Part shown: positions 11,927 through 21,756 of the stretch, in pieces
Layout: each line of letters starts with the position of its first letter
How positions within the stretch are numbered: the first letter of the stretch is position 1
From: Deltaproteobacteria bacterium
Lineage (GTDB): Bacteria > Desulfobacterota > Desulfobaccia > Desulfobaccales > 0-14-0-80-60-11
NCBI GenBank assembly: GCA_021813445.1
Contig: JAKAKP010000140.1
Coordinates: forward strand, 1,280 to 65,279
DNA: 64,000 nucleotides
Reading direction: 5' to 3'
The notes under the pieces: generated by a model
What the model saw: only the letters and a program-made list of their open reading frames with translations
Database searches by the model: none
What the model was told of the DNA's origin: nothing
Position numbers and translations under genes: made by a program

Positions 11927-12231
11927 GAGGAGGCAGGAATTAGGGGCTTGGATTTGCAGGATGGAAATTTATGCCTTCCTGAAGCTTTTTCCCTGAAAGC
12001 TGCTAGCTCATTCTCGCGTATGTCCAGTGGGTTTCCGGTGCCAAGAAAAAGGGCGCAGACTGGCTGCGCCCTGAAATGGCAGAAGCAAATTTCAGCCTCA
12101 CCGGGTCAGTCCTAAGCCTTGGGGTAAGTTGCAGGTTTCTTCCTGGCTTAGAGGTTATGACCCTTCCAAAAATAGGCCCAAATCTTGAAAAGCTTTTGTG
12201 TTCATCACCTGGGGCTATGCCGGAATGCCAA

Positions 12232-12912
12232 TCAATGTCCAGCTCCAAGTTTGCCCAGCGCCTTGGTAAGTTCCATGGCCACGCCCAGGCCCTGCCGGGC
12301 TTCTTTACTACCCATGGCGCTCAACATGCCCAAGGGGCCCAAGGGTTTGGCCTCCTCCAGGTGGATGGCCGCGGGGAGTTCCAGCAGGCGATTCATGAAG
12401 TCGATCATCTGGGGATCGGACAACTTTTTCAGCATGCTCAAGAGCAGCACAAAGGCGTCGCTCATGGTGGCAATTTCCTCGGGGTCGTAATGGGCCGCCA
12501 CCTTGGCGCGGACCTCCAGCATGGCGGCATAAGTGCGAAAAACCCCTTTGCGCTCCAGGTTATCCATGTAGTTGATGAGATTGGGAACGGCGCTTTTTAA
12601 TAAAGGCTCCATGCATTTCCACATCTCGGAGAGGTTCTCCAGGGTCTCCAGGGCCTGGGTGAGGTTGCGGACGCTGCGGAGTCCCTGTTTCAGCAGGGCG
12701 AAGAGGTCTTCCAGTTGGAAGCCGGTCTCCAGGGTCCCCAGTTCCTCCAGCAGGATTTTACAGGCTGAATTCATCAGGGGCGCGAGGTCGTTCTTCAACT
12801 CGGTCAGGCCCTGTTGAGACTTGACCAGGGTTTGTATCTGGCCCTCCATCCGGTCGAGCCTCTCCAAGATCAGTTCTTCTGTGCCAGGTTTCTTCTCATT
12901 CTTATTAGGCAT
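12232..12912 (-). CDS. DUF1641-domain protein
   Basis: Helical protein with repeated L..L..L segments, as in DUF1641. ATG at 12912 is preceded by GAGAGGAGA; a TTG at 12930 would overlap the flavoprotein stop. It lies immediately downstream of the FAD oxidoreductase, the usual partner of this family. Confidence 0.7.
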   Translation of the reverse strand: MPNKNEKKPGTEELILERLDRMEGQIQTLVKSQQGLTELKNDLAPLMNSACKILLEELGTLETGFQLEDLFALLKQGLRSVRNLTQALETLENLSEMWKCMEPLLKSAVPNLINYMDNLERKGVFRTYAAMLEVRAKVAAHYDPEEIATMSDAFVLLLSMLKKLSDPQMIDFMNRLLELPAAIHLEEAKPLGPLGMLSAMGSKEARQGLGVAMELTKALGKLGAGH

Positions 12913-12926
12913 GGCCGTCTCCTCTC

Positions 12927-14171
12927 TCAACCATAGACATGATAGACATGTCCCAGCATTTTACCGGCCATGAACATCTGGGGTTCCAGGGGCAGTTCTT
13001 TGCCTTTGAGCATCATGTTGAAGTAGACCCACTTAAACATCATCTTGCCCCAGTAGTTGAAATGGCTTTCGCCCAGAAGGGTGAAGGGCCCCAGGCCCGG
13101 GAAGGGATATTTGCCCGGCAAGGGTTCTACTTTGTAGTTGAAGTCAATGAGGCTGGCCTTTTCGTAGCCGGTGACGATGAAGCAGGTGGAGTGGCCGTCG
13201 AATTCCGGCAGGGGCTCCTGGCCGTCGATTTCCCGGAGCAGGTTTTCCACGATGATGTCCGATTCATAGTGGGCCACGGCCCCGGCCTTGGAGGTGGGCA
13301 CGTTGGTGGCGTCGCCCACGATGTACATGTTCTCGTATTTTTTGGATTTTAAGGTGCCGTGGTCAGTGTCGAGGTAACCCATGGGGTCGCCGATCTCGCT
13401 GTCGATGATGACCTGGGCTCCGAAGTTGGGCGGAATAGTCACCAGCAAATCGTAATTGACCTCGTCGCCCTTGGCGGAAGATATTATCTTCTTGGCGGGG
13501 TCGACTTCGGCGATATCGAAGTTCGGGGTGATCCTGATCTTCTTCTCTTCGCACAGCTTGGTCAAAGCTGCGGTGGCCACCGGCTTGGTGAAGGCCCCGG
13601 AGAGCGGGGTCACCAGTTCCAGTTCGATGTCGTCCCGGACCCCGTTGACCGTGAAAAACCAGTCGGCCATGAAGATGAACTCCAGGGGCGCCACCGGGCA
13701 TTTGATGGGCATTTCGGCAATATTGAGGACGATCTTGCCTTTTTTGAAGTATTTCCATCTCTTGTAAAGGGCGATGGCGCCATCCGGGGTATAGAAGTCG
13801 TGGATGTCGCCGTGCCAGTCGTCCTTCATGCCGTCGATTTCGCCAGGCATGATCCGGCAGCCGGTGGCTATCACCAGCCAGTCATAGTCAACCTGCCCCT
13901 TTTTGGTCTTGATCCGTTTCTTGACCGGGTCGATATTGGTGACTTCGTCCAACACGAAATCGATACCCGGGAGGACAAAATCCATCTTGGGTTTAATGCA
14001 GTCCTCGGCCTTGTAAACGCCGAAGGGGATGAAGAGCCAGCCCGGCTGATAGTGGTGCTGCCGGTCCCGGTCAATCACGGTAATCTTCCAGTCGTTGTCG
14101 AGCTTCTCTCGCATTTTCGTGGCTACCATGGTGCCACCGGCTCCATACCCCAAAATTACCAGTTTTTTCAT
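12927..14171 (-). CDS. NAD(P)/FAD-dependent oxidoreductase, sulfide:quinone oxidoreductase/NDH-2-like (Pyr_redox_2)
   Basis: 414 aa. N-terminal dinucleotide fold MKKLVILGYGAGG, then ...HHYQPGWLFIPFG..., and a second Rossmann fold KIVLNIAEMPIKCPVAPLEF, typical of SQR-type flavoproteins. Confidence 0.85.
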   Translation of the reverse strand: MKKLVILGYGAGGTMVATKMREKLDNDWKITVIDRDRQHHYQPGWLFIPFGVYKAEDCIKPKMDFVLPGIDFVLDEVTNIDPVKKRIKTKKGQVDYDWLVIATGCRIMPGEIDGMKDDWHGDIHDFYTPDGAIALYKRWKYFKKGKIVLNIAEMPIKCPVAPLEFIFMADWFFTVNGVRDDIELELVTPLSGAFTKPVATAALTKLCEEKKIRITPNFDIAEVDPAKKIISSAKGDEVNYDLLVTIPPNFGAQVIIDSEIGDPMGYLDTDHGTLKSKKYENMYIVGDATNVPTSKAGAVAHYESDIIVENLLREIDGQEPLPEFDGHSTCFIVTGYEKASLIDFNYKVEPLPGKYPFPGLGPFTLLGESHFNYWGKMMFKWVYFNMMLKGKELPLEPQMFMAGKMLGHVYHVYG

Positions 14172-14323: not shown

Positions 14324-15091
14324 TTACAAACCCTTTTTCTTCCAGTTGCGGGTCACATTGGTCAGGAAAAATTCTTTAACCAGACGGCGCCAGCCAAGCT
14401 GCGGAAAATGGCCATAGACATCGCCGACGAGCGCGCCGCCGGACGGCAAGGTTAATCCCACCGTGGTTTCCATGAGGTTCAGCAAGCGCCAGGATTCTTT
14501 GGCAATCCAGGCCTCGTTATTCTCTTTGGAAGAGAGGCTGGCCAAATTCTGCCGGAGATTGGTCGGTTTGACCTTGAACAGCCAGCCTTCGCCATAGGGA
14601 TCGCGATGGAGCAGACGGGGATTCTGACAAACCTCGGGATTGACTGCCGTGACTAGACCGTCCACCGGAGCCTCAAAGGAAGCCTTGTGCTCCTTTTTGA
14701 TCAGAGCCATGCAGATGTGATCCTGAAAAAAGACTGCGCCCACTTCGGGTAATCTCAGGGCGTCAGCCGGACCCAGTATCTTCTGGGAAAAGTCATCCAG
14801 CCCCACCCGCACTTCGCCGCTCTCTTCGAGCGCTACCCAGGCGTGGCCCCGGTGCAGATAATAGTCCTCGGGAGGGGCTTGTACCCCGAGGGCTTCCACC
14901 ATCCCCGGTTCAGGGTGGGGTTCGGGGGCTGGGCCACCTTCTTTCAGAGGGTGGTGGTCTACCCGCCAGACTGCCCCACATTTTTGACACACGCACTTAT
15001 ACTCTGACTGGGTGCCGTTCTTAGGGCCAGGAACCTCACAGACCAGCCAATGCCCGGCCATGGCCCCGCAATTCTTACAATCGAGTCTCAT
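14324..15091 (-). CDS. Zinc-ribbon / GcvH-fold protein with conserved C-terminal extension (paralog 1)
   Basis: N-terminal CKNCG...CQKCG ribbon. The core YYLHRGHAWV..VRVGLDDFSQKILGPADALRLPEVG...APVDGLVTAVN...DPYGEGWLFKV aligns with glycine-cleavage H proteins. An extra tail of about 80 aa ends in WKKK. RBS GGAGG. Confidence 0.8.
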   Translation of the reverse strand: MRLDCKNCGAMAGHWLVCEVPGPKNGTQSEYKCVCQKCGAVWRVDHHPLKEGGPAPEPHPEPGMVEALGVQAPPEDYYLHRGHAWVALEESGEVRVGLDDFSQKILGPADALRLPEVGAVFFQDHICMALIKKEHKASFEAPVDGLVTAVNPEVCQNPRLLHRDPYGEGWLFKVKPTNLRQNLASLSSKENNEAWIAKESWRLLNLMETTVGLTLPSGGALVGDVYGHFPQLGWRRLVKEFFLTNVTRNWKKKGL

Positions 15092-15136
15092 GTGATCAGT
15101 CCTCCACCAGGACGGATTTCCGCCCCGGACCTCCGG

Positions 15137-15751
15137 TTAACGTTTCTTCCAGTCCTTGATCAAGTTGGTTAAAAAGAACTCCTTAGCCAGACGCCGCCAG
15201 GTCAAACGGGGATAATGCCCGCAAACATCATCGAGGATGACCCCGCCCATGGGGAGAGCGGCTCCCACAGTGGTGCTGAGGATAAAAAGCAACCTCTGGG
15301 CCTCCTGTTCGATCCAGGTGACATTGGAATCACCGTAAAACAACTGGTCGAGATTTTGCGGCAGATTGGTGGGTTGGACCGTGAACAGCCAGCCTTCGCC
15401 ATAAGGATCGCCATGGATCAGGCCGGGGCTCTGCCGCGCCCGGGGATTGATGGAAGTGATAATGCCGTCCACCGGGGCTTCGATGGAGGCTTTGCGTCCT
15501 TCCCGGAACAGCGCCAGGCACACATGGTCCTGATAGTAGGTCTTGCCGATTTCGGGCAATTGCACTTCGTCCGCCGGCCCCAGGATCTTCTGGGAAAAGG
15601 CGTCCAAACCGACCCGCACCAGGCCCGAGTCTTCAGGCACCGCCCAGGTGTGGCCCCGGTGCAGATAATAAATATCGGTCGGCACTTGGAAGCCGTAGAC
15701 GTCCACAAGCTGATGCCTTGGGGCGCGGGTTTCGCAACTGGCACCGGTCAT
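15137..15751 (-). CDS. GcvH-fold protein with conserved C-terminal extension (paralog 2, no zinc ribbon)
   Basis: Same core and tail as paralog 1. ATG at 15751 has GGAGG 8 nt upstream; the track start at 15766 is a GTG. Confidence 0.8.
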   Translation of the reverse strand: MTGASCETRAPRHQLVDVYGFQVPTDIYYLHRGHTWAVPEDSGLVRVGLDAFSQKILGPADEVQLPEIGKTYYQDHVCLALFREGRKASIEAPVDGIITSINPRARQSPGLIHGDPYGEGWLFTVQPTNLPQNLDQLFYGDSNVTWIEQEAQRLLFILSTTVGAALPMGGVILDDVCGHYPRLTWRRLAKEFFLTNLIKDWKKR

Positions 15752-15811
15752 GACTTGGACCTCCACCTCAAGCCTTCCTCTGATCTGATCCCCACCTTGG
15801 CATGACGGCCA

Positions 15812-16559
15812 TCAGGATTTTTTCTTCCATTCCCGGGTCAGGCTGGTGAGAAGAAACTCCTGGACCAGGGGCCGCCAGCCCAACTGGGGATAATTTCCAT
15901 AGACGTCATCAATAATGGTGCCGCCATCCGGCCCGGTGACTCCCACTTCGCTTTCCATGAGATTGATTAAGCGATGGGACTCCTGATGCATCCAATCGGC
16001 CGTGGCGTCTCCGGAAAACAGGTTGGTCAAATTGCGCTGGAGGTTGATGGGCCAGACCTTGAACAGCCAGCCGGCGCCAAAAGGATCGTTATGGATCAGG
16101 CGGGGATTCTCACGCACCTTGGGATTGATTGCCGTAATGGCGCCATCCACCGGGGCGAGAAAGGAAGCCTTCCGGCCCTGTCTGACCAGGGAGAGGCAGA
16201 TGTGATCCTGATAGTACGTCTTGCCGAGATCTGGCAGCTTCACCTCGTCTGCGGGCCCGAAGATCTTCTGGGAAAAGGCGTCCAGTCCCACCCTCACTTC
16301 GCCGGTGTCTTCGAGCACGGCCCAGCTATGTCCCGGGTGCAGGTAACAGTCACTGGCGGGCACTCCAAAACCGAAGATTTCCACTTCCTGGTTATTCCTG
16401 CTCTTCATGTCTGCCATTCCTTCCTTAAAAAGGTTGTGTTTTTCGATGAACCAGGTTCTTCCCACATTTGCGGCAGATGCACTTGCCGAGGGGTTTAGTT
16501 TTGTCGTGATAAAAGATCTCACTCCGCCAAGGCCCGCATCTTTTGCAAAGGATTTCCAT
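15812..16559 (-). pseudogene. Zinc-ribbon / GcvH-fold paralog 3, split by a 1-nt frameshift (or two coupled ORFs)
   Basis: A 44-aa ribbon ORF (MEILCKRCG...CRKCGKNLVHRKTQPF*, 16559-16425) is followed by the GcvH-fold body in another frame. The frame of the body upstream of its first Met reads GRTWFIEKHNLFKEG, homologous to paralog 1 AVWRVDHHPLKEGG. AGGAGG RBS precedes 16559. Confidence 0.7.
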
Positions 16560-16656: not shown

Positions 16657-16673
16657 GGCAAATTACGGGCCAA
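16657..16673 (-). promoter_or_regulatory. Sigma-54 (-24/-12) promoter candidate for the GcvH-like/flavoprotein operon
   Basis: The minus strand reads TTGGCCCGTAATTTGCC, against the consensus TGGCACG-N4-TTGCW. GG and GC are separated by exactly 10 nt. It lies about 100 nt upstream of the ATG at 16559. Confidence 0.6.
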
Positions 16674-16993: not shown

Positions 16994-17599
16994 TTACAGG
17001 TCTTGGAGGCTTTGAAAGTAATCGTCCAGCAGGATCAGACAATATTTGCACAGTCCGGTTTTCTTTTGGTCCAATTTTTCCAGGTTGGCGGCAAAGCCCA
17101 TGAGACAGCCGTCTTGGCGGCAGTGGGGGAGGCCGAAGGTATGGCCCAATTCATGTAAGCTTAACTTGATGAGCCGGCTTAATAAGAGGGATCTGGACGG
17201 TTTGACTTCCCCGGCGCCGGCGCCGGGACGAAAGGTTGAAATAATGGCGGCTTTGCCGTCCAACTGGGCCTCGCCAAAGACAAAAGTGAATATGGGAATG
17301 TAAAGATCCGCCGCGGTTATCCCCAGGATTCGAAAAGGATCTTCTCCGTGCTCGTCATTGAGCAGATAATCCAGGAGTTGGGTGGAATAATACTGATTAC
17401 GCCCTGGGTGATGGGTCTGGGGGGGCAGAGGTCTGGTGGGCAAAATCTTTACCGGCAGGAAAAGAAAATCGGCAATGGCCTGGCGTAAATCAGGCAAGAT
17501 CAGGTGATCCACCGGGGCCAGGGGAACCAGGCCCAGAAACGGACGGTATGACATATAGTGAACCGCTCTACAGCCCGGAAGCCGCAGGCTGAGCCCCAA
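16994..17599 (-). CDS. Archaemetzincin-family zinc metalloprotease (Amz-like)
   Basis: HELGHTFGLPHCRQDGCLM...CKYC matches the archaemetzincin signature HExxHxxGx3Cx4CxM...CxxC. The TTG start abuts the regulator stop; an alternative ATG lies at 17554. Confidence 0.85.
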   Translation of the reverse strand: MGLSLRLPGCRAVHYMSYRPFLGLVPLAPVDHLILPDLRQAIADFLFLPVKILPTRPLPPQTHHPGRNQYYSTQLLDYLLNDEHGEDPFRILGITAADLYIPIFTFVFGEAQLDGKAAIISTFRPGAGAGEVKPSRSLLLSRLIKLSLHELGHTFGLPHCRQDGCLMGFAANLEKLDQKKTGLCKYCLILLDDYFQSLQDL

Positions 17600-18949
17600 T
17601 CAGGGCGTTAAGCCATACTTTTTCATTTTTTCATAGAGAGTGCCGCGATTGATCCGAAGGACCTTGGCCGTATTGGAGATGTGACCACCCTGTGCGGTCA
17701 GGACTAAAGCGATGTGGCGGCGCTCCATTTCCCCCAAGGAGAGGTTGGCCACTTCCTCGGTGCCCTCCGAAGTCAGCGCGAAGGGCAGGTCACCGGGTTT
17801 GATCTGCCGGCCTTTGCCCACCACCACCGCCCGTTCGATGGCGTTTTGCAATTCCCGGATGTTTCCCGGCCAGGAATAACGCCGCATCGCCGCCAGAGAC
17901 TCCAGATGAATGCCATCAATCTTTTTGCCGGTCTCGGTGGCATAGCGTCGCAGGAAGTGCTTGGCCAGCAGGGGAATATCTTCCTGCCGCTCCCGCAAGG
18001 GAGGGACCTGCAAGTGAATGACGTTGAGGCGGTAGTAGAGATCCTGGCGGAAAGTCCGGTTGCGGATGCTTTCCTGCAGGTCCTGATGCGTGGCGGCAAT
18101 GACCCGGAAGTCGCTGGTGATCGCCGTGGTTCCTCCAACCCGGCTGAATTCGTGGGTTTCCAAGACTCGCAGAAGATCGATCTGCATCTTCATGGAGATG
18201 TCCCCCACTTCATCCAGAAAGAGGGTGCCGGTATTGGCCATTTCCAACCGGCCTTTCTTGGTGAATTTGGCATCGGTGAAGGCGCCTTTCTCGTGGCCGA
18301 AGAGCTCGCTCTCCAGGAGATGTTCCGTAAAGGCGCCGCAGTTGATGGCAATGAAGGGATTGTAACCGCGAGGGCTATGGGTGTGAATGGTCCGGGCCAC
18401 CAACTCCTTGCCGGTGCCGGTCTCCCCGGTAATCAACACGGTGGCGTCGCTTTGGGCCACCTTGACGATGGTCTCAAAAAGACTGAGCATCGGGGGGGAT
18501 TGGCCCACCAGGTTGTCAAAGCGGCTGATGGACGCTATCTGGTCCTTGAGAATCAAGTTTTCCATGGCCAGGGTCTGAATTTGCACCAGTTTCTCGATGG
18601 TGAGGCTGAGCTCATCCAACTCGAAAGGCTTCAGGAGATAATCGTTGGCCCCCAGCTTCATGGCCTCCACCGCGTCCTGAATGGCGCCGTGGGCCGTCAT
18701 CATCACTACAGAGGAATCGGGATCTTCCTCTTTCAGTTTCTTGAGCAGGGTGATCCCATCCATTCCCGGCATTTTGACGTCCACCAGCATGATGTCGTAG
18801 TGGCGTTCTTTGACCTTGGCCAGGGCCTCCAGGCCGCCGGCCGCAGTTTCCACCTCATAGCCATCCTGCTTTAGCCAATCACAGAAGGCTTCCCTGATGC
18901 TCAACTCATCATCCACTACCATGATGCAGATTTTTTTATGAGGCAACAT
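17600..18949 (-). CDS. Sigma-54-dependent response regulator (NtrC family: REC, AAA+, Fis-type HTH)
   Basis: REC (MVVDDE...MLVDVKMPGMDG), Walker A GETGTGKE, sigma-54 contact loop ESELFGHEKGAFTDA and a C-terminal HTH ...NTAKVLRINRGTLYEKMKKYG. The ATG at 18949 (MLPHKK) overlaps the kinase 3' end by 14 nt. Confidence 0.95.
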   Translation of the reverse strand: MLPHKKICIMVVDDELSIREAFCDWLKQDGYEVETAAGGLEALAKVKERHYDIMLVDVKMPGMDGITLLKKLKEEDPDSSVVMMTAHGAIQDAVEAMKLGANDYLLKPFELDELSLTIEKLVQIQTLAMENLILKDQIASISRFDNLVGQSPPMLSLFETIVKVAQSDATVLITGETGTGKELVARTIHTHSPRGYNPFIAINCGAFTEHLLESELFGHEKGAFTDAKFTKKGRLEMANTGTLFLDEVGDISMKMQIDLLRVLETHEFSRVGGTTAITSDFRVIAATHQDLQESIRNRTFRQDLYYRLNVIHLQVPPLRERQEDIPLLAKHFLRRYATETGKKIDGIHLESLAAMRRYSWPGNIRELQNAIERAVVVGKGRQIKPGDLPFALTSEGTEEVANLSLGEMERRHIALVLTAQGGHISNTAKVLRINRGTLYEKMKKYGLTP

Positions 18950-21227
18950 GGTCTTCCCCCGATTTTTGGGCGGGCAGACGTATGCTGAAGCAAGTACCCC
19001 GCCCCACCACACTGTGAACTCGAATGACCCCCTGGTGGTCCCCGATTATGCCCTGCACCACGGCCAGACCCAGCCCCGCGCCCAGGCCACCCGGCTTGGT
19101 GGTATAGAAGGGTTCAAAAATCTGGGCAAACTTGTCTCGGGGTATGCCCCCGCCGGTGTCGGCGATGAGCACCAGGGCCTCCCGATGTCTGGTATTTCTG
19201 GTGACAACGGTTAAGGTGCCCTCTTTGGGCATGGCATCCCGGGCATTGATCAGCAGGTTCAAAAAGACCTGCTTCATCTTCGCCGGATCGGCCCGCACCG
19301 GCAAGAGATCGGGAGCATAACGCGTTTCCACCGTGATTCCTTGCAACCGCATCTGGAATTCGGTTAACGCTAAAGTCTCCCCCAATAAGTTGTTGAGATC
19401 CACCGCCTTGAATTCCGGCTTGGCGCGGCGGGAAAAAGGCAGCAAGCTGGAAACGGTTTTGCTCACCCGTAATATTTCTTTGTAGATCAACTCCGTATGT
19501 TTTTTCATCATGCCCATGGCCTCCTGGTCGGGAGACTCCGCATCCATGATGCGTTTGATCATCCTGGCGGAACTGAGAATACCGGTCAACGGATTGTTGA
19601 TCTCGTGGACGACGCTGGCGGATAATTTTCCCAAAGAGGCGATCTTGTCTTCGTCCATCATGCGGGTGCGGCTGATTTCATGGGTGATATCCCGGGACAG
19701 ATCGACCACTCCCCGGATTTGTCCTTCCTCATCGAACAGCGGGTGGCAAACCACGTGTAGATAACTTTCCCGGCCATCCTTGTCAAAGTGGATGTGGATG
19801 GCGGAAGCGGCCTTGCCGGTGGCTACGGTCTTTTTTAAGGGACAGGGATGGTCAGGGCTGGAGCAAGGCTGCTGCGAGCGGTGGGATACTTCATAACAAT
19901 GCCGCCCCACCACGTCTTCGCGTTTTAGACCTATCATTTCCAGCAGCGCCCGGTTGACCTCGACAATGCGATAATCGAGATCAATGACCATCATATGGTC
20001 CTTGATGCCGTTGACGATGGTTTCCAGAAAGGCCTTCTCCTTGATGGCCTGCCGCAGCAGCTCCCGGGTTTCGGCTTGCGATCTTTGCAGAGCTTCTTCC
20101 AACTGCTTCCGGGCGGTAATGTCCGTGATGACCTCCACCACCCGTTTTTGGGTGGCTTCCGGAGGGAATAAAGGCGACATGGTGATTTCGTCGACCCGTA
20201 TCATTCCCTCGGGACTGGCATGCCACTGACAGACCTGGACGGTTTCGCAGTTTTCGAGGACGCGGGGCATAGGACAGGTCAAGCCTTTCCGGTCACAAGG
20301 CTCATCGATCTGATGCAGCACCTCATAACAAGGCCTGCCGATAACCTCTTCCAACTTTTTTTCAAAGCGGGCCAAGAAGGTGCGATTGGCTTCATCCACT
20401 ACATAATTGGGGAGTAAGACGAGCACCGGATCAGGCAGGTGGTCAAAAATCTTTTGGAACCGGCTGCGCTGTCCGGCCAGCTTAATTTCGCTTTCCACCT
20501 TGCAGCGCAGACGGTCTCCATTCCTCTGCAACAATTCCCAGAAAAGCCGGGCCTTAATATGATCGATAATCTGGGTGTGGGGGTGCCGGCGCTGGATAAT
20601 GCCCTCCCGCACCAGCGGGTCGCCGGTAAGTTCCAGGATCAAGTCCGGGGCCTTTTCCAGCAAAGAGGAATAGTCGCTAAAGGTGGAGATGCCCAGACGC
20701 TCAGCCAAGGCTAACCCCGGGGCCCGGGAATTGGAATCAGCCACCCCGACAATCTCGATCTTGCGCCGGTATCCCGGCTTCCTGGTGATCAGCTGCAGCA
20801 CCTCTTGACCTGCCCTGCCAGCGCCGACAATGGCGATTTTCAAGGGAGAGACGTCCTGAATCGACAGGTCCACAGGAATGAGGTCCCAAAAGGCCTCCAG
20901 AGTAAATTCCGGCCGGTCCGCACTCAGAACCGTTAACCGTTTGGGAGCTTGCTCATAAAGCTGTTGAGCTACTTCGGGACGCCCAGTGGCGTCGACAATG
21001 ATGTCCACTTCCGGGAGATGGAATAAGTCAGCCAGATCCAGGGTCACAAAGAGGTTAAAGCGATAGGCATAGATTATCCCGGGAGCTTCCGGGTTAATGT
21101 CCGCCACCGCCACGATCCGCAAGGATTGCTCTTGTTTTCGGGGAGGCACCAAGGCTTCCAGGATCGCCATGCCTTGCCGCCCCGCGCCGACAATAGCCAG
21201 GTTATATGACTTTTTGTCAGGATTCAT
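18936..21227 (-). CDS. Histidine kinase with two N-terminal Rossmann-like modules and two Cys-rich PAS domains
   Basis: YNLAIVGAGRQG and LKIAIVGAGRAG (GxGxxG) lie in two modules of about 130 aa. Two PAS domains each carry CYEVxH-x5-PC-x6/7-CP. H-box SASVVHEINNPLTGI, then HATPase (DTGGGIP, GLGAGLGLAVV). Start MNPDKK at 21227. Confidence 0.9.
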   Translation of the reverse strand: MNPDKKSYNLAIVGAGRQGMAILEALVPPRKQEQSLRIVAVADINPEAPGIIYAYRFNLFVTLDLADLFHLPEVDIIVDATGRPEVAQQLYEQAPKRLTVLSADRPEFTLEAFWDLIPVDLSIQDVSPLKIAIVGAGRAGQEVLQLITRKPGYRRKIEIVGVADSNSRAPGLALAERLGISTFSDYSSLLEKAPDLILELTGDPLVREGIIQRRHPHTQIIDHIKARLFWELLQRNGDRLRCKVESEIKLAGQRSRFQKIFDHLPDPVLVLLPNYVVDEANRTFLARFEKKLEEVIGRPCYEVLHQIDEPCDRKGLTCPMPRVLENCETVQVCQWHASPEGMIRVDEITMSPLFPPEATQKRVVEVITDITARKQLEEALQRSQAETRELLRQAIKEKAFLETIVNGIKDHMMVIDLDYRIVEVNRALLEMIGLKREDVVGRHCYEVSHRSQQPCSSPDHPCPLKKTVATGKAASAIHIHFDKDGRESYLHVVCHPLFDEEGQIRGVVDLSRDITHEISRTRMMDEDKIASLGKLSASVVHEINNPLTGILSSARMIKRIMDAESPDQEAMGMMKKHTELIYKEILRVSKTVSSLLPFSRRAKPEFKAVDLNNLLGETLALTEFQMRLQGITVETRYAPDLLPVRADPAKMKQVFLNLLINARDAMPKEGTLTVVTRNTRHREALVLIADTGGGIPRDKFAQIFEPFYTTKPGGLGAGLGLAVVQGIIGDHQGVIRVHSVVGRGTCFSIRLPAQKSGEDHVAS

Positions 21228-21287
21228 GAAGAACTCCCAAAACCGGATAACGCCTCTGGTGCCAGCCACGGGGCCGCTGCTACCCCT

Positions 21288-21304
21288 TGTACGATAATCG
21301 CACA
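21288..21304. promoter_or_regulatory. Palindrome TGTACGATAATCGCACA (copy 3 of the UAS-like motif) upstream of the kinase gene
   Basis: 16/17 identical to copy 1, 61 nt upstream of the kinase ATG. Confidence 0.45.
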
Positions 21305-21756
21305 AATAAGCAAGCGCCATTTGGCATTAGCTTAACACGAATCTGCAAACCATGCCATTTTTTGATTAAAAAATGAACATCGCTGCCATCAGATCAGTAA
21401 GGGAGGGGTAGGCGAGTGTGTCTGTGAGGGGGGGGACCGGAAAAAATTTTTTCTAATACTGCTTAGAAGCTAGCGAAAACCTGCCTTTCTTTTTATTATT
21501 TCAAACAGTTATCAGTTGCGCGAGGTGTTCCGCCAATCTGTGGGCCGCTGGATCGAATCCGGCAAGGCGCGCCAGTTTAGCAAAATGAACAGCCCCCCGG
21601 CAGTCACGCCAAGTTTGGAGTTGAGTCGGAGGCAAGTCAAGCCGGAAATCCTCGAGGATCATTGGGAAGCCAGGAGCTCTGGGCTGACCTGGCCCCAACT
21701 CAAACTCAAGTTCTGGGATGATCCTGGGAACCAGGTAGGTTGTTCAACCAGACATC

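What the first reader, a model, noticed from the sequence alone, without database searches (positions are those of the whole stretch)
14324..16559. Three tandem GcvH-fold paralogs with a shifted lysine, a conserved QDH[IV]C motif and a novel C-terminal extension of about 80 aa
Seen: all three share three features. The first is the core [YC]YLH.GH.W......G.VRVGLD.FSQKI.GPAD...LP..G. The second is ...QDH[IV]C[ML][AS]L.....[HR]KAS[FI].APVDG.[IV]T[AS][IV]NP......P.L...DP[YF]G.GWLF.V.P.NL. The third is a conserved tail W[IM]..E..RL[LI].[LI]...[TE]VG...P.GG...[GD]DV.G.[FY]P.L.WR.L..EF.LT......WKK. An ungapped alignment with E. coli GcvH (LPEVG-22 residues-APVSG, from memory) places the lipoyl-Lys opposite E/G. 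The invariant Lys here lies two positions further on. Known: the position of the modified Lys at the hairpin tip is critical for lipoylation. Inference: these may be non-lipoylated, or differently modified, carrier-like proteins. The His-Cys pair and the N-terminal CxxC...CxxC ribbon in paralogs 1 and 3 suggest metal or persulfide chemistry.
Basis: partly seen in the sequence, partly recalled or inferred. Interest (0 to 1): 0.75.

Follow-up and report, generated by a model that had tools for sequence, protein, structure and literature searches.

The report
Lysine-less GcvH-like proteins, sigma-54 operon
Three neighbouring genes encode proteins with the fold of the glycine-cleavage H protein but without its lipoic-acid attachment lysine; they belong to an undescribed family, routinely mislabelled as GcvH, that is found beside or fused to membrane and iron-sulfur redox enzymes.

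Summary
The observation largely holds. Three tandem minus-strand genes (14324-15091, 15137-15766, 15812-16522) are genuine GcvH-fold proteins: Pfam GCV_H E 1e-17 to 1e-21, and the AF2 core superposes on E. coli GcvH at TM 0.91. Profile alignment puts E/G/G in the lipoyl-lysine column. The conserved Lys lies two residues further on, in the descending strand, not at the hairpin tip. That Lys is Arg in the closest orthologs of paralog 2 and is absent from the wider family, so lipoylation is very unlikely.

Two corrections. The extension beyond the GcvH fold is about 58 aa, not 80. Paralog 3's zinc ribbon is out of frame because of a 1-nt insertion.

The tail matches no Pfam or PDB entry and occurs only behind this GcvH-like core (122 cluster representatives among 1.84 billion proteins). 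QDHxC is specific to a Desulfobaccales/Syntrophobacterales subclade.

The family spans Desulfobacterota, Acidobacteriota and other phyla. It forms a conserved module: sigma-54 promoter, one to four GcvH-like genes, HmcB/HmcC-like (NrfCD-type) genes, a histidine kinase, a sigma-54 regulator and an archaemetzincin. Fusions to HdrC, MvhD and ferredoxin domains exist. Here, type III SQR and DUF1641 replace the NrfCD pair.

Best reading: non-lipoylated accessory or carrier subunits of quinone/Fe-S redox modules. The chemistry is untested. I found no literature on the family.

The parts
16657..16672 (-). Candidate sigma-54 -24/-12 promoter box, TGGCCCGTAATTTGCC, 98 nt upstream of the ribbon ORF start
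   Evidence: On its own this is not above chance in the window. However, equivalent TGGC(A/C)C-N5-TTGC boxes lie 40-90 nt upstream of the first GcvH-like gene in about 25 loci from several phyla.
16425..16559 (-). 44-aa CxxC...CxxC zinc-ribbon ORF: the split-off N-terminus of paralog 3
   Evidence: It matches the N-terminus of the family profile (E 4e-5). A 1-nt insertion relative to L091/P0066 explains the split.
15812..16522 (-). Paralog 3, GcvH-like plus tail (longest ORF 236 aa; likely product 198 aa from ATG at 16408, preceded by AAGGAAGGA)
   Evidence: GCV_H E 3.4e-17.
15137..15766 (-). Paralog 2, GcvH-like plus tail, no N-terminal domain (gene call 15137-15751, 204 aa)
   Evidence: GCV_H E 8.9e-18.
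14324..15091 (-). Paralog 1, 255 aa: zinc ribbon (residues 5-39), GcvH core (about 74-196), tail (197-255)
   Evidence: GCV_H E 4.1e-21. AF2 mean pLDDT 85.
14711..14725 (-). QDHIC motif of paralog 1 (residues 123-127): the loop and first residues of the strand that ascends into the former lipoyl hairpin
14684..14692 (-). E134-H135-K136 of paralog 1. E134 occupies the lipoyl-lysine column. K136 is the shifted Lys, the second residue of the descending strand.
14327..14503 (-). Family-specific C-terminal tail of paralog 1 (residues 197-255). Its helices flank a low-confidence loop carrying the motif P216-x-G218-G219 (Gly-Gly invariant or nearly so; consensus LPDGGxxxDD).
12927..14171 (-). Type III sulfide:quinone oxidoreductase (Cys form), 152 nt downstream of paralog 1 with no terminator between
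   Evidence: NF049943, 672.7 bits against a cutoff of 525..
12232..12930 (-). DUF1641 protein, overlapping or abutting the SQR stop
   Evidence: PF07849 E 1.2e-9. The pair recurs with GcvH-like genes in L090 and L091.
12050..12072 (-). Terminator-like hairpin (9 pairs, 7 G-C, then a T run) closing the putative five-gene unit
16994..17599 (-). Archaemetzincin-like (M54) metalloprotease with HELGHTFGLPH; a conserved module member
   Evidence: Present in 20 of 38 family loci.
17600..19012 (-). Sigma-54-dependent response regulator (gene call 17600-18949)
   Evidence: Present in 20 of 38 loci.
18936..21320 (-). Cytoplasmic histidine kinase: two NAD-binding Rossmann domains, two Cys-motif PAS domains, HisKA and HATPase

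Best explanation
The three genes encode GcvH-derived proteins that have lost the lipoyl-lysine swinging arm. They have gained a family-specific C-terminal tail of about 58 aa.

They most likely act as cytoplasmic accessory, docking or carrier subunits of quinone-linked and iron-sulfur redox modules, not in glycine cleavage. They appear to be transcribed from a sigma-54 promoter under the adjacent histidine kinase and sigma-54 regulator. The putative unit is paralog 3, paralog 2, paralog 1, type III SQR, DUF1641.

In other lineages the same protein family is tethered to the membrane by an N-terminal helix. There it is encoded around a Tat-exported HmcB/HybA-like 4x[4Fe-4S] protein and an HmcC/HybB-like (NrfD-type) quinone-interacting membrane subunit. 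Other members are fused to HdrC, or to ferredoxin plus MvhD (HdrA2-like) domains.

In this window's subclade, a His-Cys pair (H125, C127) on the strand leading into the former lipoyl hairpin is the best candidate reactive site. I infer, but have not shown, that the Cys accepts or presents sulfane sulfur or a disulfide for the S-S-handling partners (SQR here, HdrB in the fused variant).

Shown: the fold, the loss of the lipoyl site, the family-specific tail, the conserved gene module, the conserved sigma-54 boxes and the domain fusions.
Inferred: physical association with the redox partners, and thiol or persulfide chemistry.
For: Fold and loss of the lipoyl site:
- GCV_H hits. Foldseek TM 0.91 and rmsd 1.3-1.6 A to E. 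coli and bovine GcvH over 123-125 of 127 columns.
- The lipoyl column holds E/G/G, and only 4 of 61 relatives have Lys there.
- K136 lies in a strand and is Arg in the closest orthologs. The HEW Glu is lost in 61/61.

Tail:
- No Pfam or PDB match.
- 122 cluster representatives carry it, and wherever the sequence upstream of the tail matches anything it is the GcvH-like core; short hits look like gene fragments.
- Gly-Gly (G218 100%, G219 98%) and Trp positions are conserved across phyla.

Module:
- Histidine kinase in 21, sigma-54 regulator in 20, M54 in 20 and FeS/NrfD genes in 19 of 38 loci.
- The FeS and NrfD proteins score best on HmcB/HybA and HmcC/HybB. Tat signals are present in six loci.
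- Sigma-54 boxes lie upstream of the first GcvH-like gene in about 25 loci.

Fusions: P0098 is GcvH-like plus HdrC, between HdrA and HdrB. P0139 and P0142 are ferredoxin plus MvhD plus GcvH-like. P0222 and P0204 are ferredoxin plus GcvH-like.

SQR link: SQR and DUF1641 are adjacent in three distinct genomes. No terminator lies before the one at 12050-12072.

Reactive site: Cys127 is present in 118/123 and His125 in 123/123 subclade members.
Against: - No direct evidence of any physical complex or of any chemistry.
- His125 and Cys127 are absent from the HmcBC-linked and acidobacterial members. Any thiol mechanism therefore cannot be the ancestral family function.
- The SQR link is limited to one genus-level clade. 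In L090 the SQR is divergently oriented and has no sigma-54 box of its own.
- The HmcB-like subunit is periplasmic where a Tat signal exists. The GcvH-like domains are predicted to be cytoplasmic by the positive-inside rule only, so contact would have to go through the NrfD-like subunit.
- A stress-effector or regulatory role fits the sigma-54 and two-component context equally well.
Confidence: 0.5

Rival explanations
1. Shifted-site carrier: K136 is still lipoylated, or carries another acyl group, attached by a specialised ligase. The proteins would then work like LbpA of sHdr systems, as swinging-arm carriers.
For: Lys is present at +2 in 114/123 close homologs, in a KAS context that resembles the canonical K(A/T)(A/S)S. 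The Hdr association of some members recalls LbpA (PMC6067878).
Against: - K136 is in the descending strand, not on the turn.
- It is Arg in 8 homologs and Gln in 1, including four of paralog 2's closest orthologs.
- No Lys is conserved at 0 or +2 in the wider family.
- The HEW Glu is lost.
- No ligase or lipoyl synthase appears among the conserved neighbours.
- From established knowledge (Wallis and Perham 1994, recalled from memory): moving the Lys by one position in the lipoyl-domain turn abolishes lipoylation.
Confidence: 0.05
2. Metal-binding proteins (metallochaperone, metal buffer or sensor). H80, H83, H125, C127 and perhaps D124/D144 would form a site, and the CxxC ribbons would bind Zn. 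The whole module would be a ZraPSR-like sigma-54 metal or envelope stress response, with a zinc protease (M54) as partner.
For: - H83 is invariant and H80 85% conserved across the whole family. H125 and C127 are conserved in the subclade.
- Cys4 ribbons or Cys-rich N-domains occur in many members.
- M54 is a conserved neighbour.
- The architecture of a sigma-54 two-component system plus a small effector resembles ZraSR-ZraP (my own knowledge).
Against: - H83 is also conserved in canonical GcvH (39/41), so it is probably structural.
- H125 and C127 are not family-wide.
- Fusions to HdrC, MvhD and ferredoxin and linkage to HmcBC and SQR point to electron or sulfur transfer rather than metal handling.
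- The geometry could not be checked because the tools return no coordinates.
Confidence: 0.12
3. Stress or regulatory effectors without redox chemistry. These would be sigma-54-induced, membrane-associated proteins, PspA-like in logic, whose GcvH fold and tail only mediate protein-protein contacts. The HmcBC-like pair would serve as the redox sensor feeding the kinase.
For: In Acidobacteriota the FeS/NrfD genes sit in the kinase, regulator and M54 operon, while the GcvH-like gene is the separate sigma-54 target. No residue beyond structural GcvH motifs and the tail is conserved across the family. Most members carry a membrane anchor.
Against: In six or more loci the GcvH-like genes flank the FeS/NrfD genes in one co-directional block. 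Covalent fusions to HdrC, MvhD and ferredoxin argue for a role inside redox enzymes.
Confidence: 0.18
4. Ordinary GcvH or LbpA paralogs, as current annotation says ('glycine cleavage system protein H').
For: Pfam GCV_H exceeds its gathering score. Database names say so.
Against: TIGR00527 scores are 54-71 bits against a cutoff of 115.85, and NF002270 scores are 61-74 against 117. There is no lipoyl Lys. No other canonical-GcvH-like ORF turned up in the 64-kb window, and no gcvT or gcvP gene sits in the neighbourhoods examined. The extra tail and the sigma-54 redox context also argue against it.
Confidence: 0.02

Closest known systems
Glycine cleavage system H protein (GcvH; PF01597, TIGR00527)
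   Same: Same barrel-sandwich fold (TM 0.91, about 30% identity to E. coli GcvH). It shares the H-x-W, VGxT/D, LPxxG, aPxxG and PYxxGW structural motifs.
   Different: No Lys at the hairpin tip and no Glu in HEW. An extra C-terminal tail of about 58 aa. N-terminal zinc ribbon, TM helix or Cys-rich domain. Scores below the equivalog cutoffs. Not encoded with gcvT or gcvP; instead under a sigma-54 promoter with redox partners.
LbpA, the lipoate-binding proteins of sulfur-oxidising Hdr-like (sHdr) systems (Cao et al. 2018, PMC6067878)
   Same: GcvH-like proteins that work with Hdr-type Fe-S enzymes rather than with glycine cleavage. Some members here are fused to HdrC, next to HdrA and HdrB.
   Different: LbpA has a strictly conserved lipoyl Lys and two conserved Cys, and comes with dedicated lipoate ligases. 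This family lacks the Lys, has at most one subclade-specific Cys in the core, has no ligase neighbour, and has a tail that LbpA is not reported to have.
GcvH-L of Streptococcus and Staphylococcus (PDB 5A35)
   Same: A GcvH paralog with a function outside glycine cleavage. It is a structural match (Foldseek E 2.4e-5, TMt 0.83).
   Different: GcvH-L is lipoylated and ADP-ribosylated, and is encoded with a sirtuin, a macrodomain protein and LplA2. It is only 14% identical and has no tail.
NCBIfam NF045810 'GcvH-related protein' (Desulfovibrio-type) and TIGR03077 'not_gcvH'
   Same: Recognised GcvH-like side families; weak hits were found.
   Different: Scores are 27-38 bits against 150, and 26-34 against 144. 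These proteins are not members.
Cytoplasmic thiol/disulfide subunits and carriers of transmembrane redox complexes (HmcF, DsrK with DsrC; TusA/DsrE sulfur relays)
   Same: This is an analogy of position only. They are cytoplasmic partners of HmcBC/DsrOP-type modules or of sulfur-oxidising enzymes. A single reactive Cys is the candidate site in the subclade found here.
   Different: Unrelated fold, and no CCG domain. The chemistry is untested here.

Membership tests
GcvH (glycine cleavage H protein) | GCV_H fold and profile match | tested here: met
   Pfam PF01597 at 62.9-75.6 bits against a gathering score of 22.2. Foldseek TM 0.91 to 3AB9.
GcvH (glycine cleavage H protein) | Reaches the equivalog or subfamily cutoff (TIGR00527, NF002270) | tested here: not met
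   53.7-70.9 bits against 115.85, and 61-74 bits against 117.
GcvH (glycine cleavage H protein) | Lipoyl-lysine at the hairpin tip (E-[ST]-[VM]-K motif) | tested here: not met
   The column holds E, G and G in paralogs 1-3. Canonical GcvH has Lys in 41/41. The AF2 turn is at 133-134.
GcvH (glycine cleavage H protein) | Conserved Glu of the HEW motif. It contacts the loaded lipoamide arm in pea H protein (from memory of Cohen-Addad et al. 1995). | tested here: not met
   0/61 family members have Glu, against 34/41 canonical sequences.
GcvH (glycine cleavage H protein) | Genomic association with gcvT and gcvP | tested here: not met
   The neighbours are SQR, DUF1641, M54, a sigma-54 regulator and a histidine kinase. 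No gcvT or gcvP family appears among the conserved neighbour clusters.
LbpA (sHdr lipoate-binding protein) | Strictly conserved lipoate-attachment Lys | tested here: not met
LbpA (sHdr lipoate-binding protein) | Encoded in or next to an shdr cluster with dedicated lipoate-protein ligase and lipoyl synthase genes | tested here: not met
   No hdr or ligase genes lie in the window locus. Only a minority variant is fused to HdrC, and no ligase is seen beside it.
LbpA (sHdr lipoate-binding protein) | Actual lipoylation of the protein | not testable with these tools
   This needs mass spectrometry.
NF045810 GcvH_rel_desulf and TIGR03077 not_gcvH | Score at or above the curated cutoff | tested here: not met
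   26.9-38.1 bits against 150, and 26.4-33.6 bits against 144.05.
New family proposed here (tail-bearing, lysine-less GcvH-like proteins) | GcvH core without a lipoyl Lys, plus a C-terminal tail with W195, G212, (D/S)217-G218-G219, W234 and F241 | tested here: met
   All three paralogs carry these features. They score 375-388 bits on the family profile.
New family proposed here (tail-bearing, lysine-less GcvH-like proteins) | Sigma-54 promoter box upstream, and an adjacent histidine kinase, sigma-54 regulator and M54 genes | tested here: met
New family proposed here (tail-bearing, lysine-less GcvH-like proteins) | Adjacent HmcB/HmcC-like (NrfCD-type) genes | tested here: not met
   These are absent from the window locus. 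Type III SQR and DUF1641 occupy the downstream position.

The most novel reading that the evidence does not exclude
The lysine-less GcvH-like proteins are the cytoplasmic, substrate-handling subunits of a previously unrecognised class of sigma-54-induced transmembrane or quinone-linked redox complex. That class has HmcBC-like, Hdr-fused and SQR-linked versions. In the Desulfobaccales subclade, Cys127/His125 replaces the lipoamide dithiol as a protein-borne sulfane-sulfur or disulfide carrier. It would link intracellular sulfide oxidation by type III SQR, or S-S reduction by HdrB, to the menaquinone pool.
Probability: 0.2. Interest if true: 0.8.

Novelty: new variant of a known kind. Interest (0 to 1): 0.62.

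Why it matters
1. Annotation. Large numbers of these proteins in Desulfobacterota and soil and peat Acidobacteriota, including Candidatus Sulfotelmatobacter, are labelled 'glycine cleavage system protein H' or 'lipoate-binding protein'. Metabolic reconstructions that count gcvH, for example for the glycine cleavage system or the reductive glycine pathway, can be misled. The lipoyl-column test used here separates the two classes cleanly.

2. Biology. A GcvH scaffold has lost its prosthetic-group lysine yet is conserved across at least six phyla. It is duplicated two to four times per locus, tethered to the membrane, and fused to or encoded with Hdr, Mvh, HmcBC or SQR components. This suggests a new type of accessory or carrier subunit in anaerobic energy or sulfur metabolism.

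3. Testability. The conserved sigma-54 promoter and the dedicated two-component system give a direct experimental handle: find the inducing signal, and the function should follow.

Tried and rejected
- K136 as a shifted lipoylation site: rejected (strand position, Lys-to-Arg in orthologs, no conservation across the family).
- The tail as a known domain: no Pfam hit at E<=10, no PHROG hit, and the best PDB sequence hit is E 0.53 (NDUFB2, chance). Foldseek against PDB matched only the GcvH core.
- The tail as an independent domain found elsewhere: rejected. Among the 122 profile hits I found no example of the tail behind a different domain; where upstream sequence matches anything it is the GcvH-like core, and short hits look like gene fragments.
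- The C-terminal 'WKKK' segment as an amphipathic in-plane membrane helix: not supported. The hydrophobic moment is 0.02-0.19.
- SQR as the universal partner: rejected. It is present only in the window and in L090 and L091.
- QDHxC as the family's active site: rejected as a family-wide feature.
- The structure tool returns no coordinates, so a His/Cys metal site could not be measured.
- Seven literature searches that ran found nothing on a lysine-less GcvH family or on a GcvH plus NrfD/Hmc/SQR module. The NrfD-family review PMC8076601 does not mention one.
- One sigma-54 box match in the window is not significant on its own (29 matches against 35 expected). It gains weight only from its position and from cross-phylum recurrence.
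Full report
**What is in the sequence**

Three tandem ORFs lie on the minus strand: paralog 1 at 14324-15091 (255 aa), paralog 2 at 15137-15766 (209 aa; public gene aa) and paralog 3 at 15812-16522 (longest ORF 236 aa; gene aa). Each matches Pfam GCV_H well above its gathering score (75.6, 64.8 and 62.9 bits; E 4e-21 to 3e-17).

Two details need correcting.
- The GCV_H match runs to residue 195 of paralog 1, and E. coli GcvH aligns to about residue 199. The extension beyond the GcvH fold is therefore about 58 aa, not about 80.
- The CxxC...CxxC ribbon ascribed to paralog 3 (MEILCKRCG...CICRKCGK, 16425-16559) is in a different frame from the GcvH-like ORF and ends at a TAA. Alignment with the intact 255-aa ortholog P0066 in locus L091 shows a 1-nt insertion in the window (GGGAAGAACC against GGGGAAACC). 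The same sequence is present in three public assemblies. The split-off ORF still matches the N-terminus of the family profile (E 4e-5).

**The lysine**

I built a profile HMM from 41 canonical GcvH sequences, which have Lys in 41/41 at the lipoyl column. It aligns the three paralogs without gaps through the hairpin. It puts E134 (paralog 1) or Gly (paralogs 2 and 3) in that column, with the conserved Lys two columns later. phmmer against E. coli GcvH and a MAFFT alignment agree; the phmmer alignment to Thermus GcvH uses small gaps and puts the Lys at +1, still off the lipoyl column.

An AF2 model of paralog 1 (94-sequence alignment; mean pLDDT 85, core 96-98) has strands 126-132 and 135-140 with the turn at 133-134. 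K136 is therefore the second residue of the descending strand, not the tip. The core superposes on E. coli and bovine GcvH with target-normalised TM 0.91 and rmsd 1.3-1.6 A over 123-125 of about 127 columns. That fits an essentially ungapped structural alignment.

Among 123 close homologs the +2 position is Lys in 114, Arg in 8 and Gln in 1. The Arg forms include four of the closest relatives of paralog 2, at 75-82% identity. A residue that tolerates Arg in orthologs is not a lipoylation site.

A second GcvH marker is also lost. The Glu of the HEW motif is present in 34/41 canonical sequences and in 0/61 family members.

**The wider family**

A scan of species-representative genomes found tail-bearing relatives in Desulfobacterota, many Acidobacteriota, Eisenbacteria, Deferrimicrobiaceae, Thermoanaerobaculia, Planctomycetota, Ignavibacteria and Prolixibacteraceae.

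Across 61 such proteins the lipoyl column is G30, D10, A6, K4, S3, R3 and others. Neither the +2 Lys nor QDHxC is conserved outside a Desulfobaccales/Syntrophobacterales subclade.

What is conserved family-wide:
- the structural GcvH motifs (H83, W85, G97, D99, P142, G145, N151, PYxxGW);
- the tail (W195, G212, D/S217-G218-G219, W234, F241).

The tail has no Pfam hit even at E<=10 and no PDB sequence match (best E 0.53). A tail profile searched against 1.84 billion cluster representatives found 122 proteins. Wherever the sequence upstream of the tail matches anything it is the GcvH-like core, I found no example of the tail behind a different domain, and the short hits look like gene fragments.

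In the model the tail is a long helix (190-207), a low-confidence loop carrying the conserved Gly-Gly, and three short, confident helices.

Most members outside the window's subclade start with a TM helix followed by basic residues, which implies a cytoplasmic domain by the positive-inside rule. Others start with a Cys-rich N-domain, CxWMxAGxxxxKxC...C..C.FD.

**Genomic context**

I clustered the neighbouring ORFs of 38 family loci. Four partner families recur: a histidine kinase (21 loci), a sigma-54-dependent response regulator (20), an archaemetzincin-like M54 peptidase (20), and a Fer4_11 four-cluster protein plus an NrfD-family membrane protein (19).

The last two score best on HmcB/HybA and HmcC/HybB respectively. 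The Fe-S protein has a clear Tat signal in six loci.

A typical arrangement is: GcvH-like, FeS, NrfD, GcvH-like, GcvH-like, histidine kinase, sigma-54 regulator, M54.

TGGC(A/C)C-N5-TTGC boxes lie 40-90 nt upstream of the first GcvH-like gene in about 25 loci from several phyla. The window has TGGCCCGTAATTTGCC at 16672-16657, 98 nt upstream of the ribbon ORF start. That single match is not significant within the window alone.

Domain fusions add to the picture.
- P0098 is GcvH-like plus HdrC, between HdrA and an HdrB/CCG gene.
- P0139 and P0142 are ferredoxin, MvhD, a Molydop_binding-like domain and GcvH-like, on an HdrA2-like C-terminal part.
- P0222 and P0204 are ferredoxin plus GcvH-like.

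In the window the downstream genes are a type III SQR (NF049943, 672.7 bits; uninterrupted ORF, so the Cys form) and a DUF1641 protein. No terminator-like site appears before a strong one at 12050-12072. The SQR-DUF1641 pair recurs next to GcvH-like genes in two other genomes, with SQR 87% and 93% identical. It is absent from other Desulfobaccales loci, and in L090 it is divergently oriented with no sigma-54 box of its own.

**Interpretation**

These are GcvH-derived proteins that have lost the swinging arm and gained a private tail. They are repeatedly found beside, or covalently joined to, Fe-S and quinone-linked redox components, under a dedicated sigma-54 two-component system.

The best-supported reading is a cytoplasmic accessory, docking or carrier subunit of such modules (confidence about 0.5).

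For the window's subclade, the His125-Cys127 pair at the start of the strand that ascends into the former lipoyl hairpin is the best candidate reactive site. Its partners handle S-S bonds: SQR here, HdrB in the fused variant. A protein-borne persulfide or disulfide carrier role is therefore a reasonable inference. It is unproven and cannot be the ancestral family function.

Rivals:
- a metal-binding or metal-stress role (His-rich core, ribbons, zinc protease neighbour);
- a PspA-like stress effector with the HmcBC-like pair acting as sensor;
- residual lipoylation at K136, which is unlikely;
- ordinary GcvH, which is refuted.

**Comparison with known families**

The proteins fail the defining tests for GcvH: equivalog cutoffs, the lipoyl Lys, the HEW Glu and gcvT/gcvP context. 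They also fail those for LbpA, which has a strictly conserved Lys and dedicated ligases (PMC6067878). They fall far below the cutoffs of the two NCBIfam GcvH-like side families.

Seven full-text searches that ran, plus the NrfD-family review (PMC8076601), gave no description of such a family or module. Public annotation calls them 'glycine cleavage system protein H'.

I class this as a new variant of a known kind: a known fold with the key residue lost, a new tail and a new conserved context.

**Limits**

- No coordinates were available from the structure tool.
- Nearly every locus examined in detail comes from a metagenome-assembled genome, so no expression or biochemical data could be brought in.

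Noticed in passing
window 16408-16559 (-), insertion near 16462: Paralog 3 carries a 1-nt insertion that splits its zinc ribbon into a separate 44-aa ORF. The TAA of that ORF overlaps a Shine-Dalgarno-like AAGGAAGGA just upstream of the 198-aa GcvH-like ORF. The sequence is identical in three public assemblies, so it is probably real and not an assembly error. The two parts may be made separately by coupled re-initiation.
   Followed up: partly
window 18936-21227 (-): The histidine kinase of this locus is cytoplasmic. It has two N-terminal NAD-binding Rossmann domains (NAD_binding_3, GFO_IDH_MocA) and two PAS domains, each with the motif CYEVxH-x5,6-C-x6,7-CP. Kinases of the same module in other phyla are membrane HAMP kinases without this motif. 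This suggests a switch from an extracytoplasmic to an intracellular redox or NAD(H) signal.
   Followed up: partly
window 16994-17554 (-); 20 of 38 related loci: An archaemetzincin-like M54 metalloprotease with an intact HExxHxxGxxH motif is a conserved member of the module, always next to the sigma-54 regulator. Its substrate is unknown. The GcvH-like proteins themselves are candidates.
   Followed up: no
window 12927-14171 (-): The SQR scores 672.7 bits on the NCBIfam model named 'type III SQR, selenoprotein subtype', yet it is an uninterrupted ORF. It has Cys at positions matching the usual SQR redox cysteines by my own reading (C158 in KCPVAP, C339). It is therefore the Cys form of a family that elsewhere uses selenocysteine.
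   Followed up: no
L091 9333-10160; also L004 9332-10213, L010 10680-11573, L011, L013, L039 11713-12543: A distinct paralog type carries a Cys-rich N-domain, CxWMxAG(V/L)xx(F/Y)KxC-x5,6-C-x2-C-x-(F/L)D, duplicated in Desulfobacteraceae. It has no Pfam or NCBIfam match and lacks QDHxC. The window locus has lost this fourth gene, or never had it.
   Followed up: partly
L018, L021, L024, L025, L027, L029, L035, L040 (Acidobacteriota): Genes for 2-oxoacid:ferredoxin oxidoreductase alpha and beta subunits, and a small c-type-cytochrome-like ORF, lie just upstream of the TM-anchored GcvH-like gene. A CPBP/Rce1-like intramembrane protease lies just downstream in L021.
   Followed up: no
window 22000-52000: G+C rises from about 0.53 (1-22 kb) to 0.57-0.67 across 22-52 kb, then falls again. 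No tRNA genes were found anywhere in the window.
   Followed up: no
L015, L022, L023, L032-L034, L060: One TM-anchored paralog type has a conserved short N-terminal motif before its TM helix, x(T/A)KG(I/L)EY(L/I), shared across phyla. It may be a contact point with the NrfD-like subunit.
   Followed up: no
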